Virus record (IMG/VR): IMGVR_UViG_3300042731_011014
Span: 32,001-96,000 of that record
DNA from: a virus
Direction: 5' to 3' (one strand)
DNA length: 64,000 nucleotides
The notes under the pieces are model-generated. The model saw nothing but the letters and a program-made list of their open reading frames with translations, searched no databases and was not told the origin of the DNA. How positions within the stretch are numbered: position 1 is the stretch's first letter; every line of letters starts with the position of its first letter. Shown piece by piece: positions 18,089 through 58,280 of the stretch. A program made the position numbers and the translations under genes.

Positions 18089-18289
18089 ATGGAAGAAAGA
18101 AACGAGCACACCTATTCCTACTATAGCGGGGGGGGGTACTACCCCAAATTAGGGAAGTTCGGGACGGAGCTTATTAAAAAGAATAAAAAATTCGGATATT
18201 CCTTTGATTACAAAGGAATCTCCCATGGCCCATACGCTTCATGGGAAGAAGTCGTAAAAGCATTACGAAAATATCACAATAAACTTTAG
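18089..18289 (+). CDS. small hypothetical protein (66 aa) containing a G9 tract
   Basis: RBS AAAGGAG; GGGGGGGGG at 18128-18136. Confidence 0.7.
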   Translation: MEERNEHTYSYYSGGGYYPKLGKFGTELIKKNKKFGYSFDYKGISHGPYASWEEVVKALRKYHNKL

Positions 18290-18765
18290 GATCCTTCATT
18301 TTTTTTACCCAGTGCCGCCTTTATAGCTTTTATAGCTGCTTCCTTCATATTATCATCAATATCACCGTGTGTATGATCATAATCGAGCATCTTAACATTT
18401 AGGTCTTCAGCAAGATCTCTAGCTATCTTCCTATCAACAGCTTCGCGAATTGACTTCCATTCATCTGGATTATTTATCAATGACTGTGGTATACCGAATT
18501 CGTCATACTTTTCATCAATCTTGATACCTAGATCGTGAGCTGCCTTGCTAACGATCTCAATTTTTCCACCAACAAATTTCATAAAATTATCCAGACAATC
18601 TACAACCTTTTTCATTTCATTATCCAGATCCTTATCCACACCTTTGTTAAGTTCAAGATCATCACAGATCACGACCCTGCAAGTTGCTACACGATCTAGT
18701 ATCAATTTTACTCGATCCAAAAAATCAGACATGTCAGTACCTATTTGTTCTATTACTGTGCGCAC
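18286..18765 (-). CDS. hypothetical protein (159 aa)
   Basis: ORF track; converges on the plus-strand pair. Confidence 0.6.
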   Translation of the reverse strand: MRTVIEQIGTDMSDFLDRVKLILDRVATCRVVICDDLELNKGVDKDLDNEMKKVVDCLDNFMKFVGGKIEIVSKAAHDLGIKIDEKYDEFGIPQSLINNPDEWKSIREAVDRKIARDLAEDLNVKMLDYDHTHGDIDDNMKEAAIKAIKAALGKKNEGS

Positions 18766-19102
18766 CTTTACCAGTAACCGCTTTTATTCTTTGTGTCAAC
18801 TTACATCCCCTTGCTTTTACACATCCATACCGCTGACACCCACAATCAAGTGTAAGTATTTCACCTTTTTCTGTAATCAAGTCACAGGAACAATAGCCAT
18901 CCCCATCGGAATCTTGACTTGCACACGTTAAGCTTTTGATTTCACCAAGATTATCCGCGTACTCGGTAGCAGCCTTTAACGCCGCAGCATAATCGGCCCC
19001 GCAACTACCTATACCGCCAATAACCGCTGAACCGATAATCAAAACAACGGCCACACAAATAAGCAATTCACCTAGAGTTAATCCGCTTTCTCTTTTCATC
19101 AT
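18734..19102 (-). CDS. type IV pilin-like protein (prepilin class III signal, Cys-rich C-domain)
   Basis: MMKRESG|LTLGELLICVAVVLII has a basic leader, Gly at -1, Glu at +5 and a hydrophobic helix; C-domain has 7 Cys and DSDGDG. Confidence 0.7.
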   Translation of the reverse strand: MMKRESGLTLGELLICVAVVLIIGSAVIGGIGSCGADYAAALKAATEYADNLGEIKSLTCASQDSDGDGYCSCDLITEKGEILTLDCGCQRYGCVKARGCKLTQRIKAVTGKGAHSNRTNRY

Positions 19103-19137
19103 CCTTTTCCTTTCTTTATCGTTAAACTCTCAATATC

Positions 19138-19305
19138 CTATTTGCTGATCTTCTTTTCGTAATCTCTTAATTTTTTTACCGCCTCCAGCAGTGATGTTTC
19201 TGCAACCGCACTTGATTGAATCCCTATTGCACCAGCCCATGATTTAGCATACCTTACAATCTCTTCCTTTAGTCCTTGTAGTTTTTTTCTTTGATTACTT
19301 GTCAT
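19138..19305 (-). CDS. small hypothetical protein (55 aa, MTSNQRKKLQGL...)
   Basis: Open frame filling the gap, with an upstream GGAG RBS. Confidence 0.5.
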   Translation of the reverse strand: MTSNQRKKLQGLKEEIVRYAKSWAGAIGIQSSAVAETSLLEAVKKLRDYEKKISK

Positions 19306-19321
19306 CCCGGCTCCGCAGTGC

Positions 19322-19840
19322 TTACAAACAACACCTATAATACGTTATAAAAGAAAAGCTAACCTTTTCCTTTGACCTTCTATCGACACCTTTTGCATTT
19401 TCTTTATAGGCCAATCTCCATTTACTAAAATCAATGTTAGGGAAAAATGTATCAGCATCATAATCTCTATCTATTACAGTCAATTCAAGCACTGATGCAA
19501 TATCAAGTCCGGCCTTATAGATCCTTGATCCACCTATAAGAAAAGCTCTATTTTTGCAACCACTTTTTACATGCTTTATAGCATCATTAAAGTTATTGTA
19601 AACCGTAACATTGTCAGGATCAAACCCACTGTCAGATGTTAAAACAATATTCTCTCTTTTAGGTAATGGTCTGGATTTTTTAGGAAACGATTTATATGTC
19701 CTTATCCCCATAATACACGGGTAACCCATCGTAAGTTTTTTAAATCTAACAAAATCCTCTCTAATACTCCAAGGTATCTTGCCATTAATACCAATGGCGT
19801 TATTTCGCGCAATAGCAGCTATAATCGTAAAATCGACCAT
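19322..19840 (-). CDS. folA: dihydrofolate reductase
   Basis: IIAAIARNNAIGINGKIPW...EDFVRFKKLT..IMG.RTY.S..RPLP.REN, IGGSRIY, DADTFFP. Confidence 0.95.
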   Translation of the reverse strand: MVDFTIIAAIARNNAIGINGKIPWSIREDFVRFKKLTMGYPCIMGIRTYKSFPKKSRPLPKRENIVLTSDSGFDPDNVTVYNNFNDAIKHVKSGCKNRAFLIGGSRIYKAGLDIASVLELTVIDRDYDADTFFPNIDFSKWRLAYKENAKGVDRRSKEKVSFSFITYYRCCL

Positions 19841-26259: not shown

Positions 26260-26499
26260 CTGTTCCTTATTTGTTGCTCAAAGTTACTGTTCTACAGGTA
26301 ATTCGCTCTCAGTTGATACCAAATCTTTGGTGCAACTTGAGTCTTGGTTGAGCAGTCCCAACCGGTAGCTATCAGTCCGTTTTTGCAATATGGATTTCAC
26401 TTCCTTAAAGTTTGTCCAACGATCTATCTCAGGATCATATAATCTTGCTAAAACGTTTTTAGCAGCATTCTCATCAGCCTGATATACTTCCCCTATAAT
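26260..26499 (-). mobile_element. TnpB 3'-terminal fragment (RuvC-III region and putative guide-RNA scaffold); no start codon, no transposase
   Basis: Frame 26499->26284 reads IIGEVYQADENAAKNVLARLYDPEIDRW...RLGLLNQDSS...STESELP; AD-x-NAA-x-N[IV] is the TnpB RuvC-III motif. Confidence 0.7.
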
Positions 26500-51040: not shown

Positions 51041-51361
51041 TTAGTCCTCTAGCTCACTTAAAAAATTAGCTAGCGCCTCTAATCTCTTTTCCTCATCGGA
51101 TTCTTTTTTTATATCATTCAACTCTTCTATTTTCTTATCTGTTTTTGCTTTTATTTTTTCTATTTCTATTCTAGCGCTAGTTTCCTCTTTTTCGATCCGT
51201 TTTTCTACCCTCTTACTTATTTTTCCTTTAGCGTTAACTCTGTCCTTTTTACTCCTTACAATAATAAAAACAATAATCCCAGTAATTAAGCTAAGAAAAA
51301 TATACCAGTGCTTAACAAAAAAATGCCAAAAACTCTTTATTGCATACCATATTTTTTTCAT
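51041..51361 (-). CDS. N-terminally anchored coiled-coil membrane protein (i-spanin-like)
   Basis: TM WYIFLSLITGIIVFIIV followed by a charged coiled coil. Confidence 0.5.
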   Translation of the reverse strand: MKKIWYAIKSFWHFFVKHWYIFLSLITGIIVFIIVRSKKDRVNAKGKISKRVEKRIEKEETSARIEIEKIKAKTDKKIEELNDIKKESDEEKRLEALANFLSELED

Positions 51362-51383
51362 AAAGTCACTCTACTTAATTTAT

Positions 51384-51726
51384 GCGGCGGAAACCCCTGA
51401 TTTCAATCAGGGGAGAAGCCGCCTAACAATTAACCACCAAATTATGCATACGAATAACATTGGGAGTTACCTCCCAATTCTCTGCTTTCGCAGGTAAAGG
51501 TCACCTCGGCAAAGTTAATGCACGGTTTTATATGCAAACAGCACTGGCTTAACCCCTTAGACCTGTTTAACCACTTGCCGTAGAGCCTGGGGCTGGTGAA
51601 GCACCCCAGGGTACCTATATATTCGTGCTTAACGTAGCTCAAGAAGTATTGCTCCTTTGCTTAGCCTGGTTAACATAAGGCCTGTAATCTCTCACAAGCC
51701 CTCGACTTCAGTCGAAGGTAGTTGAC
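51384..51726 (-). mobile_element. non-autonomous IS200/IS605 element carrying an IscB-type omegaRNA (HEARO-like) with iscB deleted
   Basis: Minus strand starts GTCAACTACC with hairpin CCTTCGACTGAAGTCGAGGG, then GTTAACCAGGCTAAG, CTACGTT, ACCCTGGGGTGCTTCACCAGCCCCAGGCTCT, GGTTAAACAG, CAGTG, TTGCCGAGG; ends with hairpin GGCGG..CCCCTGATTGAAATCAGGGG..CCGCC; flanked by ATAAA. Confidence 0.88.
51455..51726 (-). ncRNA. omegaRNA / HEARO scaffold (guide expected from the flank beyond 51726)
   Basis: Conserved motif order typical of IscB-associated RNAs, ending at a GGAGG RBS and vestigial ATG (MLFV...). Confidence 0.82.
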
Positions 51727-52190
51727 GACTTAACCGGATTCGGTTTTACTAGTTTTGTTATCTCATGTATAGCAAGAGACATTGGCCCAGATAACGCTAA
51801 AATTAAGGCCTCCCACCACTCCTTTCCGGCTCCAATCGTAAGAACAATAAATAATCCACCTCCTAGAACTAAAGTTGCAATCCGAATGTAATTTTTTCCT
51901 TTTTCCTTGAACCATGTGCTTGCCATTTTTAATAAAGAAATTAATAACTTGAAAATTGCCGCGAGCAACGCCATCCACGCTACTAACTCACCTGCATGCT
52001 CCCCTGATTTTAAATCCTTTACTGTCTTCACCAATTTTCCAACATCACCAATAACACCTGAAACATCACCATCACTATTAACTGCATTATCTACAATATC
52101 AGCCGGATCCGTTGATGCATCATTGGCATATGCCATATTTAGCATAATTATTGAAAACATTAAAATTAACACAAAAATTGCTTTAATCAT
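51708..52190 (-). CDS. multi-pass membrane protein (holin-like); last codons come from the inserted element
   Basis: Signal peptide plus 2-3 TM segments; the terminal STTFD* is encoded inside the element end. Confidence 0.65.
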   Translation of the reverse strand: MIKAIFVLILMFSIIMLNMAYANDASTDPADIVDNAVNSDGDVSGVIGDVGKLVKTVKDLKSGEHAGELVAWMALLAAIFKLLISLLKMASTWFKEKGKNYIRIATLVLGGGLFIVLTIGAGKEWWEALILALSGPMSLAIHEITKLVKPNPVKSSTTFD

Positions 52191-53939: not shown

Positions 53940-56900
53940 CTAAGATTCATCAATGTTTTCAGACTGTATAAAAACATGAGGATGAGATTCTTTATCCAAT
54001 CCTAGCAATGAATCTAGACAGTCATTAATCGTCACAGAAACATGCGGGTAAGCACTCTCATCTAATCCAAGTAAAAAATTAGTGCAATCATTTGCCGATG
54101 GCGCAGTAAATTTTATACTCGAACTTCCTTTGAAAAGAAGTTTTAATCCATTAACATAACAAACAGTTGACCCCATTGCTGTATTAATATTACCAGCAAC
54201 CGCTGACAATGCATAGGAGCCACCTGCACCACTATCGCCGGTAACATCAATATCGTTTACGCTATTTCCGTCAACATCTAGATTAATATTATAATGAGTT
54301 GCGTCCAAAGTTAAAATAGGATCTGTTACCGTATGACCTTCAAGTTGTACATTTGAAGGCTTTGTAAATTTTATCTCCCTTGGTGCCTTAAAAATTAACT
54401 TTGTACCATCTACAAAACATACAGTTGAACCAATGGCAGTATTAATATTTGAAGCAATAGCTGACAGTGCATAGGATCCGCCTGCACCTAAATCCCCAGT
54501 TACATCAATATCATTATGTCCACCACCATCAATCTCAAGATCGATATAGCAATTAGTTCTATCGAGAGTAAGTATAGGATCTGTTACTGTATGACCATCA
54601 AACCTAGCAAGCAATGCATCCGTACCAGATCCACCCAAATTATTTCCACGAACAACATAAACGTTCGCTGAGCCAATTGCTATCCCATTCCCAGATCCAG
54701 CATAGGAATTTATATTATTTCCAATAATAATAGATTTCTCCCCCACAGATCGAATCGCATCATGTGCCCCAGCGCCGCTAGCCACGCTAACAAGGTTATT
54801 ACCTGTAATAACACAATTATCCGACGCAGCAACGATACCATACTCTTCAGTTCCTCTAATTACATTCCCTATCATACTGCATCTATGAGCAAGAGAAGGA
54901 ACATTTATCCCTGCTAATGATCCTAAAATAGAGTTCCCCGTAATTGCAACATCTGTACTATTGGTCTCAATAAGAATACCATTTGAGTTAGCCGAAGCCT
55001 TTATTCTATTCCCCAATATTGAGCTTAATTCTCTAGCAAAAATGCCATTAAAACCGTTGCCAGTGACCTCAACATTATTCCCGGTAACTGCGCATGACTC
55101 TCCGGTTTCAATTGAATTACCTTGAGAGTAAACATAGTTACCAACAATGGATCCGACTACTTTTTCTGCACCTATCCCAGTAACAAAATTACTTATCCAG
55201 TTTCCCTCTATTACTGATGGAGTCGGATTAATCGCGGTTGTCGCTAACCGAATACCAGCACCGTCGGCAGCACTCTTTTGCATAACGTTTTTCGAAATTG
55301 TAACACTGTCCGCTTCAAAATTAGCATCACATGAAAAACCGTCATATCCAACACCGGGGTCCCAAATTATATTTTCACTAAAAACTAAGCTTTTTGTTCC
55401 CCCTATAGAAACATAAAATCCATCATATCCAGGCTCATATATAATATTGCCAGCATACCTTGAGAACCTTGCACCGTTATCATAAATACCATACTCGGTT
55501 ACAGTATCTATAATATTGTTAATCACATTAACCATTTCGACTAATTCAGTCGTATAATCATCAATCTCAATTCCTCTAGCGCCTCCATTAATATTATTCG
55601 AACTAACTAAGCAGCTATCAGCTCCAACATGAACAGCTATAGTTCCAGCACTATCCACTATATTCCCAACACACCTACCCCGAATACCACTCATTGTGAT
55701 ACCATCAGCATTCGAATTAAGCAGATAATTACCTATTGCCGCAGATTCTTCACCATTGAGAAGTAAAAGCGAATCTCCCCCGTTCCCGCTCGCATAGCAA
55801 TTTTCTATCGTGGAATATGCACCAACTATTATCCCTCTCAGTCCAGCATTTAATGAGGCGCAATTTTCAATACTGCTAAGATTCCCTGCAAAAATACCCT
55901 CACCACCAAAATCATCAACATAGCAACCAGTTATCAACGAATAGTTACCATCTGTTCTTAATCCCTCGGCCGTTGCATATGCTGGCGTCGCATCACCTAT
56001 TGCAACTACATTCTCAATTCTGCACCTAATACCGGTAAGATAGATACCATAAACCTGATTTACTAAAGAGCAATCTCTAGCAATCACATCATTACCTGAT
56101 CCACTAATGGAGTAGTAAAGCTCACCACCTGACTCAAAGGTACAATTTTCGATAACCGATCCATGTCCGGGATCTTTTATGGCAGAGTATGTTGAAACAG
56201 ATCCGCTGTATTCAAACTTCAAATTTTTAAAAACATTCTTTTCGGATCCAGTGCATAAAAATGCATTGCCCGAATCAAAAGACCATTTTATTCTAGGCAA
56301 ATCGTTTGTTAGGTTATTTAAAAGAAATCCCTCAATAGATACCCTTGCCAGCCCACTAAACCCGACATCATTGAAATCAACCGGATCGGCCAATGTTATA
56401 TCACCGATTACCTTAATTTTTGCATTAATAATATCTCTCTGAGAATGATTTAATATTGTCGCAATATGCGAGACAGCTCTATTTAAACATCCGCTACCAT
56501 AAAAATCAGACGGACCACTATCCGAAACAGTAATCTCAATTGTTTTAAATCGGTCCTCTGCCGTCCTAACAACATCATGGGACATATCAAACTGAGATAG
56601 TGTTGTGTTGTAATAAAAAAAAGCTAATGGAACGTATGATTCATCAAAACCCAACGTTGCATCAATATCAGTAAATTCTCCTGTTGCAGCATTCATTAAC
56701 ATGACTCTATTTTGATTCGCTCCGAGTATTTCATGGTATCCAGCAGATTTAGATAAAACCGTGCCTGTATTTGTCATTAACTTAAATGTAGATGCCCATT
56801 CCACCCTACTTAGTGCATCATTAAATGTGAAACCTGGATATTCTATAACATGAGCACCAATGGTATTACCAACGGCATCCTTTATACCCTGAATTCTATC

Positions 56901-58280
56901 TCTTGCTATTGTATCCCTTTCAGGGCGATACTCTGTAAAAGCTCCTGGAGCAAAACCAGAATAAAAACTTTCAACCCCACACCATAAATTAAACGTACCA
57001 GTAAAACTGGTATCGCTTGTCTCAGAAAAATCAAAATAAATCCATGGGTTTTCATAAAATCCATCCGAATCAGCATCGGCACTTGGATCGACTTCAGCCG
57101 TGTCCGCTGAGTTATTTATTTTTAAAATAGTTATTGGACCACTGTCACTTCCAGTAAGAACGTCCGATCCATCGGTATCAAGTAATTTAAACCTAACATC
57201 CTTGATTATCTGTGAATCAGATCCGGACTTTCCAATATAAACTTTTCTTGGAAGCTGGAACTTGGTACTTGCAATACCTAAAGTAACTGGAACTCTTGAT
57301 GGTTCAGCAATATGTTTTGCTGGAAGTAATCCTCTATGAAGGCCGGTTGCAGTAGGCATTCTTGCAGACTGCGAAGCACCTCTAGTAAAAAGATCTGTTT
57401 GCGCTCCAGAATAGTAACTTTTTTTACCATAATAAATCTGCAAATTACCGGTATAATTAACATTGGAGGTCTCAGAAAAATCAAGATAAATCCATGGATT
57501 GGAATAAAACCCATCAACATCAGCATCGGTACTGGGATTAACTTCAGCTGTATCTGCTGAGTTGTTTACCTTTGAAATATAAATAGGCTTCCCATCATCA
57601 CCAAAAAGTGAAACCTCCCCATTTGCATCGAATAAAACAACGTTTTTATCTTTTATATCCTGAGAATCCGTTCCAATTTTACCAATATGTATCGATCTAT
57701 TAAGTTGAAACTTTGTACTAGCCACTGAAAGGGTTATTAATTCCATTGTAGGCTCAGAAATATACTTCGCTGGAATAAAACCGTACTTGGTACCAGTCGC
57801 CCACGGACGAGTTGAGTTAACCTCGTCCTGATAGATGGTAGCCGTATCAAAATCGGCAGATCCGGCAAGAATGGATACTTTAGCTAAAACCAGATCAGTT
57901 GACACAATGTCAGCTTCATCTATTAAAAGCATGCTAGCAGTAGTTTGAACATCTATATTATAGACAACTCTCATTACAAGAGCCACGATAATATCTGATC
58001 CAGTTGGAACCATCGTTCCATCGACTTCTATTGCTGATGTTTCGCGAATAGTTTGAGACCAACCGCTTTTTTCATATACTGCTACAGAATCGCCATTTGT
58101 TGGATCGGTTAAAACATTAAGCTTCTTTTCGCCAGCAACAGCTTCAACAATAAAACCTCTATATCTTCCAGTTGGCGCAACTGCATTAAGTTTTCTATTA
58201 CTACTTGCCGATGTGTAAGGCTCATACCATCTAGTTTCCACTCTCTCATTGCTAATATTTACAGTCTTATAAGTCGACAT
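53940..58280 (-). CDS. tailspike / tail fibre with parallel beta-helix (depolymerase-like) region and two internal duplications
   Basis: Many I.GN.I / GI.. PbH1-type repeats; duplicated N-region (...NNSADTAEV.PS.DAD.DGFY.NPWIY.DFSETS) and duplicated C-region (GHTVTDPILTLD...GGSYALSA...). Confidence 0.8.
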   Translation of the reverse strand: MSTYKTVNISNERVETRWYEPYTSASSNRKLNAVAPTGRYRGFIVEAVAGEKKLNVLTDPTNGDSVAVYEKSGWSQTIRETSAIEVDGTMVPTGSDIIVALVMRVVYNIDVQTTASMLLIDEADIVSTDLVLAKVSILAGSADFDTATIYQDEVNSTRPWATGTKYGFIPAKYISEPTMELITLSVASTKFQLNRSIHIGKIGTDSQDIKDKNVVLFDANGEVSLFGDDGKPIYISKVNNSADTAEVNPSTDADVDGFYSNPWIYLDFSETSNVNYTGNLQIYYGKKSYYSGAQTDLFTRGASQSARMPTATGLHRGLLPAKHIAEPSRVPVTLGIASTKFQLPRKVYIGKSGSDSQIIKDVRFKLLDTDGSDVLTGSDSGPITILKINNSADTAEVDPSADADSDGFYENPWIYFDFSETSDTSFTGTFNLWCGVESFYSGFAPGAFTEYRPERDTIARDRIQGIKDAVGNTIGAHVIEYPGFTFNDALSRVEWASTFKLMTNTGTVLSKSAGYHEILGANQNRVMLMNAATGEFTDIDATLGFDESYVPLAFFYYNTTLSQFDMSHDVVRTAEDRFKTIEITVSDSGPSDFYGSGCLNRAVSHIATILNHSQRDIINAKIKVIGDITLADPVDFNDVGFSGLARVSIEGFLLNNLTNDLPRIKWSFDSGNAFLCTGSEKNVFKNLKFEYSGSVSTYSAIKDPGHGSVIENCTFESGGELYYSISGSGNDVIARDCSLVNQVYGIYLTGIRCRIENVVAIGDATPAYATAEGLRTDGNYSLITGCYVDDFGGEGIFAGNLSSIENCASLNAGLRGIIVGAYSTIENCYASGNGGDSLLLLNGEESAAIGNYLLNSNADGITMSGIRGRCVGNIVDSAGTIAVHVGADSCLVSSNNINGGARGIEIDDYTTELVEMVNVINNIIDTVTEYGIYDNGARFSRYAGNIIYEPGYDGFYVSIGGTKSLVFSENIIWDPGVGYDGFSCDANFEADSVTISKNVMQKSAADGAGIRLATTAINPTPSVIEGNWISNFVTGIGAEKVVGSIVGNYVYSQGNSIETGESCAVTGNNVEVTGNGFNGIFARELSSILGNRIKASANSNGILIETNSTDVAITGNSILGSLAGINVPSLAHRCSMIGNVIRGTEEYGIVAASDNCVITGNNLVSVASGAGAHDAIRSVGEKSIIIGNNINSYAGSGNGIAIGSANVYVVRGNNLGGSGTDALLARFDGHTVTDPILTLDRTNCYIDLEIDGGGHNDIDVTGDLGAGGSYALSAIASNINTAIGSTVCFVDGTKLIFKAPREIKFTKPSNVQLEGHTVTDPILTLDATHYNINLDVDGNSVNDIDVTGDSGAGGSYALSAVAGNINTAMGSTVCYVNGLKLLFKGSSSIKFTAPSANDCTNFLLGLDESAYPHVSVTINDCLDSLLGLDKESHPHVFIQSENIDES

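What the first reader, a model, noticed from the sequence alone, without database searches (positions are those of the whole stretch)
51384..51726. Orphan IscB-type omegaRNA cassette with both transposon ends, sitting between its guide flank and an ATAAA motif
Seen: a 343-bp GC-richer island with omegaRNA/HEARO motifs in order, a terminal hairpin at each end, and only a vestigial MLFV start where iscB should be. Joining the flanks gives CCG GTT AAG TCA TAA, so the holin-like gene would end NPVKS*, with its stop inside ATAAA. Established: IscB takes its guide from the flank 5' of the omegaRNA and needs a 3' TAM; ATAAA is the TAM reported for KraIscB-1; stand-alone omegaRNAs can act in trans. 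Inference: this is a nuclease-free element whose RNA would direct a trans IscB against element-free alleles in related phages, allowing homing or phage-phage competition.
Basis: partly seen in the sequence, partly recalled or inferred. Interest (0 to 1): 0.82.

Follow-up and report, generated by a model that had tools for sequence, protein, structure and literature searches.

The report
Nuclease-less IscB guide-RNA mini-transposon in phage
A T4-like phage carries a small transposon remnant that kept the guide-RNA scaffold of the Cas9 ancestor IscB and lost the nuclease gene; this is a known kind of transposon derivative, and nothing here shows that the phage uses it.

Summary
Window 51494-51726 (minus strand) matches Rfam HEARO/omegaRNA over the full model at 140.5 bits (cut-off 83). 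That score equals those of omegaRNAs beside intact iscB genes (141-145 bits). The scaffold sits in a GC-richer island with a hairpin at each end. Of iscB, only ATG-TTA fused to the last five codons remains.

It is an insertion. The nearest related phage has the two flanking genes overlapping at ATGA, with nothing between them.

The 177,890-bp phage has no iscB and no Y1 tnpA. It holds a second, more decayed copy about 49 kb away. The closest full-length elements found share only 81-86% omegaRNA identity.

The ATAAA "TAM" reading is probably wrong:
- The sister copy has GTGGA at that position.
- 16 of 17 relatives carry ATGA a few bases beyond the end hairpin.
- The two copies stay similar for about 22 nt beyond the hairpin, and both then reach ATGAA, the next gene's start codon.

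The element therefore more likely spans 51362-51726. The upstream gene still ends NPVKS* in the empty site.

Verdict: a PATE-like, non-autonomous IscB-derived mini-element, a new member of a known kind. Trans-guided homing is untested and has no identified nuclease. This scan has noted similar orphan omegaRNAs in other phage genomes.

The parts
51727..51742 (-). Flank immediately 5' of the scaffold (CGAATCCGGTTAAGTC). It would be the about 16-nt guide if the RNA were loaded by an IscB. It is also the last codons (..PNPVKS) of the membrane-protein gene.
   Evidence: Position relative to the HEARO match. The 16-mer occurs once in the phage. The rule that the guide lies 5' of the scaffold comes from Meers et al.. 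A guide length of 16 nt is reported for OgeuIscB.
51494..51726 (-). IscB omegaRNA (HEARO) scaffold, full length. It begins GTCAAC at the transposon right end.
   Evidence: Rfam RF02033, 140.5 bits, GA 83, model 1-211 of 211. Omega-RNAs beside intact iscB score 141.4 and 144.5 bits. All relatives start at GTCA.
51699..51718 (-). Right-end hairpin (CCTTCGACT GA AGTCGAGGG on the minus strand). It is the first internal hairpin of the omegaRNA.
   Evidence: Inverted repeat I5. It is paired in the cmscan alignment.
51461..51493 (-). 3' extension of the omegaRNA beyond the Rfam model: hairpins CTGC-GAAA-GCAG and TTGGGAG-GTAA-CTCCCAA, running into the former iscB start codon.
   Evidence: Inverted repeat I3. 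The same two hairpins sit before the ATG in full-length elements L007, L008 and L124. Meers et al. note that RF02033 lacks downstream elements.
51442..51460 (-). iscB remnant: ATG-TTA (codons 1-2) joined at a GTTA microhomology to the last codons (G)YSYA plus TAA. As it stands it reads MLFVC...
   Evidence: Alignment with the sister copy, which keeps 37 N-terminal codons. IscB C-termini are DGYAYS* in L007 and DGYSYAHH* in L127. The sister copy's stub matches RRXRR/PF14239 and NF040563.
51384..51423 (-). Left-end (in TnpA orientation) subterminal hairpin: GGCGGC-TTCT-CCCCTGATT-GA-AATCAGGGG-TTTCC-GCCGC.
   Evidence: Inverted repeat I1. The same architecture (TCC..CCCC loop GGGG TTTCC closing stem) ends 17 full-length relatives.
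51362..51383 (-). Probable left-end tail of the element (ATAAATTAAGTAGAGTGACTTT).
   Evidence: Similar to the same stretch of the sister copy: 13 of 22 identical, 7 of 9 mismatches transitions, P about 0.004 and 0.0004. Relatives have a 5-10 nt tail between hairpin and ATGA. The boundary is not proven.
51357..51361 (-). ATGAA: start codon of the 106-aa downstream gene, and the more likely target-adjacent motif (TTCAT in TnpA orientation).
   Evidence: Both copies are followed by ATGAAAAAA. ATGA follows the left end in 16 of 17 relatives. The GstIscB wild-type TAM is TTCAT. The related phage has an ATGA stop/start overlap at this junction.
51708..52190 (-). 160-aa membrane protein gene of unknown family. 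Its last five codons (STTFD) and its stop lie inside the element.
   Evidence: ORF list. The homologue in related phage L004 (143 aa) ends 9 residues after HEITK, the same length as the predicted pre-insertion ...HEITKLVKPNPVKS*. No family hit.
51041..51361 (-). 106-aa downstream gene, separated from the membrane gene by the insertion.
   Evidence: ORF list. In L004 the homologous 101-aa gene overlaps the upstream gene by ATGA.

Best explanation
This is a non-autonomous, internally deleted IS200/IS605-family IscB element, a PATE-like mini-transposon of 343-365 bp. It keeps the right end with a complete omegaRNA scaffold and the left-end hairpin, but has lost iscB.

A full-length or already shortened element entered this T4-like phage lineage. 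The entry was presumably by single-strand transposition catalysed by a Y1 TnpA supplied in trans in an infected host (inferred). It landed at the stop/start overlap between a small membrane-protein gene and the next gene, in the same orientation as those genes.

The insertion is nearly harmless. The upstream protein keeps its sequence and gains five residues. The downstream gene keeps its ATG and gets a new leader from the element's end.

Deletions at short microhomologies then removed the nuclease gene. The scaffold with the upstream flank is probably transcribed passively as the 3' part of the membrane-gene mRNA (inferred). With no IscB in the phage, the RNA has no partner there. The most likely present state is a tolerated, slowly decaying selfish remnant, as the more damaged sister copy shows.
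For: - Full-length HEARO match, 140.5 bits.
- iscB is reduced to ATG-TTA plus (G)YSYA*. Intact relatives end DGYAYS* or DGYSYAHH*.
- The end hairpin has the family's architecture.
- The full-length relative L007 shows the complete layout: omegaRNA, iscB, antisense Y1 tnpA, end hairpin.
- The phage lacks iscB and Y1 tnpA.
- A second copy lies at G000 132168-132591, 92.5% identical. It has a 37-codon IscB stub ending in a stop and a 30-nt deletion inside the omegaRNA, and scores 65.7 bits, below the cut-off.
- The related phage G001 has both sites empty and no HEARO.
- Both copies have the same orientation as the upstream gene, the bias reported for IscB elements.
- Protein-less PATEs that carry omegaRNAs are described.
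Against: - Copy 1's scaffold is as good as those next to working genes.
- The two copies share a 134-column run without a substitution over the 3' half of the omegaRNA, while the rest differs at 23 sites (permutation P about 5e-5). This could reflect selection on the RNA rather than decay; gene conversion would explain it equally well.
- The host is unknown, so a host IscB or TnpA cannot be excluded.
- The left boundary and the TAM are not settled.
Confidence: 0.78

Rival explanations
1. The orphan omegaRNA is a working trans guide. It is co-transcribed with its 5' flank and loaded by an IscB made by the host or by a co-infecting phage. It directs cleavage of the element-free allele in related phages, so the element homes into them or excludes them.
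For: - The scaffold is intact, 140.5 bits.
- It has the same orientation as the upstream gene, so it would be transcribed with its guide.
- The 3' half of the RNA is identical in both copies.
- Published discussion says omegaRNA-bearing PATEs would need nucleases encoded in distinct IS elements acting in trans.
- TnpB-driven homing of IS605 between plasmids is reported.
- T4-like phages recombine actively (general knowledge).
Against: - The phage has no iscB.
- No iscB with a matching omegaRNA was found. The best matches are 81-86% in the RNA and about 80% in the first 29 residues.
- The sister copy's scaffold is broken.
- Copy 1 has a C-A mismatch in the first stem where copy 2 and the relatives pair.
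- No close relative phage with an identical empty site exists in the collections searched.
- The proposed ATAAA TAM is not shared by the sister copy.
Confidence: 0.1
2. The element has been co-opted for gene expression rather than for guiding. Its structured RNA stabilises or insulates the 3' end of the membrane-gene message, and its left-end tail supplies the leader or ribosome-binding site, possibly also a promoter, for the downstream gene.
For: - The tail now lies directly upstream of the ATG of the 106-aa gene.
- In the sister copy the tail reads AAAGGGG-T7-ATG.
- 9 of the 16 relatives scanned carry an SD-like motif in the left-end tail just before ATGA, and roughly half of those ATGAs open real ORFs.
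- A weak sigma-70-like match spans the end, 51406-51377 on the minus strand.
Against: - The related phage manages with a plain ATGA overlap.
- The promoter match is 9 of 12, and such matches are common here: 9 found against 4.1 expected.
- Copy 1's tail has only a poor SD (GAG).
- There is no sign of conservation across phages.
Confidence: 0.07
3. The segment is native to the phage, or an assembly artefact, not an insertion.
For: None beyond the lack of an identical empty allele at nucleotide level.
Against: - Two copies lie at unrelated loci of one contig, each flanked by phage structural genes.
- The syntenic relative lacks both.
- The segment contains iscB remnants and IS ends shared with bacterial elements.
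- Its GC content is 10 points above the genome's.
Confidence: 0.02

Closest known systems
[quoted passage not shown]
   Same: IS200/IS605-type ends are kept and there is no protein gene. The omegaRNA is retained, and both mobility and any guiding depend on proteins supplied in trans.
   Different: This one is derived from an IscB rather than a TnpB element. It still shows the deletion scars (start codon and last codons of iscB). It sits in a lytic T4-like phage that has no matching nuclease or Y1 transposase at all.
ISGst5, the IscB element with its HEARO-type omegaRNA at the right end and a TTCAT TAM (same paper)
   Same: The omegaRNA lies upstream of iscB and is bounded by the right end. The guide comes from the flank. 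The orientation matches the upstream gene. ATGAA (= TTCAT) lies beyond the left end in both copies here.
   Different: The nuclease is deleted. ATGAA lies 22-25 nt beyond the hairpin rather than the 5-10 nt seen in the relatives I examined, so the TAM assignment is not proven.
Full-length relatives found here: L007 (omegaRNA-iscB-tnpA), L124, L127, L013
   Same: Same omegaRNA family, same two hairpins before the ATG, same IscB N- and C-terminal residues, and the same end-hairpin design.
   Different: Only 72-86% identical in the omegaRNA. They come from bacterial or unassigned metagenomic contigs, and all keep the 420-430-aa nuclease.
HEARO/IscB systems on viral contigs (Goltsman et al. 2022, PMC9755519)
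   Same: That study classed over 16% of HEARO-encoding fragments as viral or prophage, so IscB elements in phages are already known.
   Different: Those carry the nuclease. Here only the RNA and the ends remain.

Membership tests
HEARO / IscB omegaRNA (Rfam RF02033) | Covariance-model score at or above the curated gathering score, over the whole model | tested here: met
   140.5 bits against 83, model positions 1-211 of 211, E=3.4e-29.
HEARO / IscB omegaRNA (Rfam RF02033) | Lies directly upstream of an iscB (HNH/RuvC) ORF on the same strand | tested here: not met
   Only ATG-TTA plus the last five codons remain. An iscB was once there, as the sister copy's RRXRR stub shows.
IS200/IS605-family non-autonomous element (PATE-like) | Subterminal hairpins at both ends; no inverted terminal repeats; no protein gene | tested here: met
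   Hairpins at 51699-51718 and 51384-51423. The longest internal frame is the 17-codon fusion remnant. The end hairpin matches the design seen in 17 relatives.
IS200/IS605-family non-autonomous element (PATE-like) | Inserted next to a conserved target-adjacent motif at the left end, with no target duplication | tested here: inconclusive
   There is no duplication. ATAAA is not shared with the sister copy, which has GTGGA. ATGAA is shared by both copies and fits the family, but lies further out than in the relatives.
IS200/IS605-family non-autonomous element (PATE-like) | More than one copy, and an empty site in a related genome | tested here: met
   Two copies in the phage. Both sites are empty in related phage G001, at the level of gene order only, because that phage shares 51-58% protein identity.
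IS200/IS605-family non-autonomous element (PATE-like) | A Y1 TnpA available in trans | tested here: not met
   No PF01797 match in the phage. The host is unknown, so host supply is not testable here.
Functional OMEGA (IscB-omegaRNA) system | A cognate IscB nuclease in the same genome or a known partner genome | tested here: not met
   PF14239 and NF040563 find only the 37-39-residue stub. The closest intact IscB elements have 81-86% omegaRNA identity.
Functional OMEGA (IscB-omegaRNA) system | A transcript that joins guide and scaffold, and cleavage of the empty site | not testable with these tools
   Needs RNA-seq and a cleavage assay.

The most novel reading that the evidence does not exclude
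Lytic phages keep nuclease-free omegaRNA mini-elements as cheap gene-drive cassettes. The RNA is transcribed from late genes together with its flank. It borrows an IscB from the host's own IS elements, or from a co-infecting phage, to cut element-free alleles in competing phages. The phage thereby gains marker exclusion without paying for a nuclease gene.
Probability: 0.06. Interest if true: 0.75.

Novelty: new member of a known kind. Interest (0 to 1): 0.3.

Why it matters
It adds a clean, well-delimited example of how IscB elements decay inside a phage genome. It shows nested microhomology deletions that spare the guide RNA, and an insertion at a stop/start overlap that harms neither neighbouring gene. 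It also shows that IS200/IS605 elements repeatedly invade this phage lineage. It does not change what is known about OMEGA systems. It would matter only if a host IscB were shown to use such orphan RNAs during infection.

Tried and rejected
- Close phage relatives with a nucleotide-level empty site: none in GenBank phages, in IMG/VR using the membrane protein, or in the 5.8-billion-protein set, where the best hit is 38% identical on short contigs. Only a distant syntenic relative was found.
- Exact-pattern scans for near-identical omegaRNAs: nothing in viral contigs or metagenomes. A shorter shared 18-mer gave 28 metagenomic loci, the best 86% identical.
- IscB relatives in IMG/VR: 10 loci, none close.
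- Inferring the host from the nearest elements failed. Relatives are spread over Chloroflexota, Desulfobacterota, cyanobacteria and proteobacteria.
- OgeuIscB's NWRRNA TAM: its first four positions fit every candidate boundary, so it does not discriminate.
- Predicting the TAM from bases next to the hairpin foot: no consistent relation across relatives.
- The KraIscB-1 TAM and the 'stand-alone omegaRNAs act in trans' statements from Altae-Tran 2021 could not be checked, because the paper is not held.
- 'Holin' identity: no family hit.

Full report
**What is there**

The Rfam scan of the whole window gives one hit above threshold. HEARO (RF02033), the RNA now known as the IscB omegaRNA, matches 51726->51494 on the minus strand over model positions 1-211 of 211. 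The score is 140.5 bits against a gathering score of 83, with E=3.4e-29. OmegaRNAs next to intact iscB genes in two metagenomic relatives score 141.4 and 144.5 bits. By this measure the scaffold is undamaged.

Downstream of the Rfam model lie two small hairpins, CTGC-GAAA-GCAG and TTGGGAG-GTAA-CTCCCAA. They run into an ATG at 51458-51460, exactly as in full-length elements.

After ATG-TTA the sequence jumps to TTCGTATGCATAA. Read in the other frame this is (G)YSYA-stop. Intact relatives end DGYAYS* (L007) or DGYSYAHH* (L127). About 20 nt further on comes a long hairpin at 51384-51423. Its design (TCC..CCCC, loop, GGGG, TTTCC, closing stem) ends 17 full-length relatives.

The island is 47.5% GC in a 37.8% GC genome.

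**Context**

The window is bases 32001-96000 of a 177,890-bp virus record rated complete. It is a T4-like myovirus with tube-, sheath-stabiliser- and fibre-like genes.

The element lies between a 160-aa membrane protein gene (51708-52190) and a 106-aa gene (51041-51361), all on the minus strand. The membrane protein has no Pfam or PHROG match, so 'holin-like' is unsupported.

With the element present the protein ends NPVKS-STTFD*. Without it, the protein ends NPVKS*.

**It is an insertion**

The nearest relative I could find is IMG/VR contig L004/G001, with 51-58% identity in neighbouring proteins. It has the same gene order. Its membrane-protein homologue ends nine residues after HEITK, the same length as the predicted pre-insertion end here. 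That gene overlaps the next one by ATGA, with nothing in between. The same record has no HEARO match.

**A second copy, and no nuclease**

Searching the whole phage finds a second HEARO match at G000 132388-132591. It scores 65.7 bits, below the cut-off. It is followed by 37 codons of an IscB N-terminus, MLKALVLDKNKMPLMPCHPARVRELLKKG.., which match RRXRR and NF040563. This stub is fused to ..IAFKYC.. of the C-terminus and then broken by a stop.

That copy (424 bp to the hairpin end) sits 2 nt after the stop of a gp15-like gene, again in the same orientation as the genes. Its site is also empty in the relative.

The two copies are 92.5% identical over 308 ungapped columns. Copy 2 has lost 30 nt inside the omegaRNA. 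Copy 1's larger iscB deletion is nested within copy 2's and is flanked by a GTTA microhomology.

The phage has no other iscB and no Y1 tnpA.

Full-length relatives include L007, which carries omegaRNA, iscB and an antisense Y1 tnpA. They are only 72-86% identical in the omegaRNA. They come from bacterial MAGs of many phyla or from unassigned metagenomic contigs.

**The left boundary and the TAM**

Three results argue against that.

1. The sister copy has GTGGA at that position.
2. In 16 of 17 relatives an ATGA lies 10-17 nt after the TTTCC of the end hairpin. That is 5-10 nt beyond the closing stem. Three copies from one Anaerolineae genome stay alike up to that ATGA and diverge after it. The experimentally determined TAM of GstIscB is TTCAT in transposase orientation, which is ATGAA in IscB orientation.
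3. The two copies here remain similar for 22 nt beyond the hairpin. Of those, 13 are identical, and 7 of the 9 mismatches are transitions, the same bias as inside the element, where 20 of 23 mismatches are transitions. Pairs of this phage's own gene-upstream regions reach that identity with P about 0.004, and about 0.0004 when transitions are counted. Both copies then read ATGAAAAAA, the start of the next gene.

My reading is that the element most likely runs to 51362 (365 bp) and was inserted at ...GTTAAGTC|ATGAAA. That restores a TCATGA stop/start overlap like the one in the related phage.

The tail is longer than in the relatives. It could have been captured by use of a more distant TAM, which Meers et al. 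report as possible. A boundary at about 51374, the family's usual distance, is not excluded. About half of this phage's gene starts are ATGA, so the ATGAA coincidence alone is weak. Only an excision or cleavage assay can settle the boundary. NPVKS* results from the 51384 and 51362 boundaries; a boundary near 51374 would instead give NPVKSRVTL*, still with an ATGA overlap.

**How it most likely works**

- Shown: the element is an IscB-derived IS200/IS605 mini-element with an intact guide-RNA scaffold and no nuclease.
- Shown: it is an insertion, it is co-oriented with the surrounding operon, and it leaves both neighbouring reading frames usable.
- Inferred: it arrived by TnpA-mediated single-strand transposition in an infected cell. 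It is transcribed passively with the membrane gene. It is now a tolerated remnant, like the more decayed sister copy.

Protein-less PATEs that carry omegaRNAs, and the orientation bias of IscB elements, are both described. IscB/HEARO systems on viral contigs are also known.

**What speaks for more than decay**

The two copies share a run of 134 aligned columns without a substitution across the 3' half of the omegaRNA. All 23 differences fall in the first 123 nt or the last 50 nt (permutation P about 5e-5). Selection on the RNA core would explain this, and so would gene conversion between the copies in a recombination-proficient phage. I cannot separate the two.

Against function, copy 1 has a C-A mismatch in the first stem where copy 2 and the relatives pair. 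Copy 2's scaffold is broken. No partner nuclease is known.

**Verdict**

The interpretation as an orphan omegaRNA cassette is supported. The ATAAA TAM and the trans-homing function are not supported. The element is a new member of a known kind. This scan has already noted similar orphan omegaRNAs in other phage genomes; those notes are leads, not evidence.

Noticed in passing
outside the window: G000:C1:132168-132591 (locus L003:1443-1866, minus strand): Sister copy of the element. Its omegaRNA has a 30-nt internal deletion (65.7 bits). A 37-codon IscB N-terminal stub is fused to C-terminal codons and ends in a stop. It has the same end hairpin. It is inserted 2 nt after the stop of a gp15-like sheath-stabiliser gene and just before the ATGAAAAAA of the next gene.
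   Followed up: yes
outside the window: G000:C1 about 18100-19800 (locus L100:1441-3112, minus strand): An apparently intact IS607-type pair: a 188-aa serine recombinase with an N-terminal HTH, overlapping a 393-aa TnpB (PF07282, 65.6 bits). The phage therefore does carry one complete OMEGA-type nuclease, but of the TnpB class, which uses a different RNA.
   Followed up: partly
window 26284-26499 (minus strand): A 71-codon open frame without a start, containing QADENAAKNVLAR, which looks like a TnpB RuvC-III motif. It lies between a UvrD-like helicase gene and the next gene and is probably another transposon remnant.
   Followed up: partly
loci L007-L014, L020-L033, L057, L087, L090, L098, L110, L124 (left ends of full-length IscB elements): In this IscB family the left end is followed by ATGA in 16 of 17 cases. 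In 9 of those 16 the last few bases of the element carry an SD-like motif (GGAGG, AAGGA) at ribosome-binding distance. About half of the ATGAs open real ORFs. The elements seem to land on start codons and bring a replacement ribosome-binding site.
   Followed up: partly
alignment A1 of copy 1 (window:51340-51780:-) and copy 2 (L003:1400-1900:-): Of the 23 substitutions between the two copies, 20 are transitions. They are confined to the first 123 nt and the last 50 nt. The 3' half of the omegaRNA is identical in both, which points to gene conversion or selection.
   Followed up: partly
window 53940-58280 and L003:1-840: The 1446-aa fibre-like protein and the sheath-like protein share repeated segments (..DGTHYNINLDVDG..DIDVTGD.G.GGSYALSA..).
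   Followed up: no
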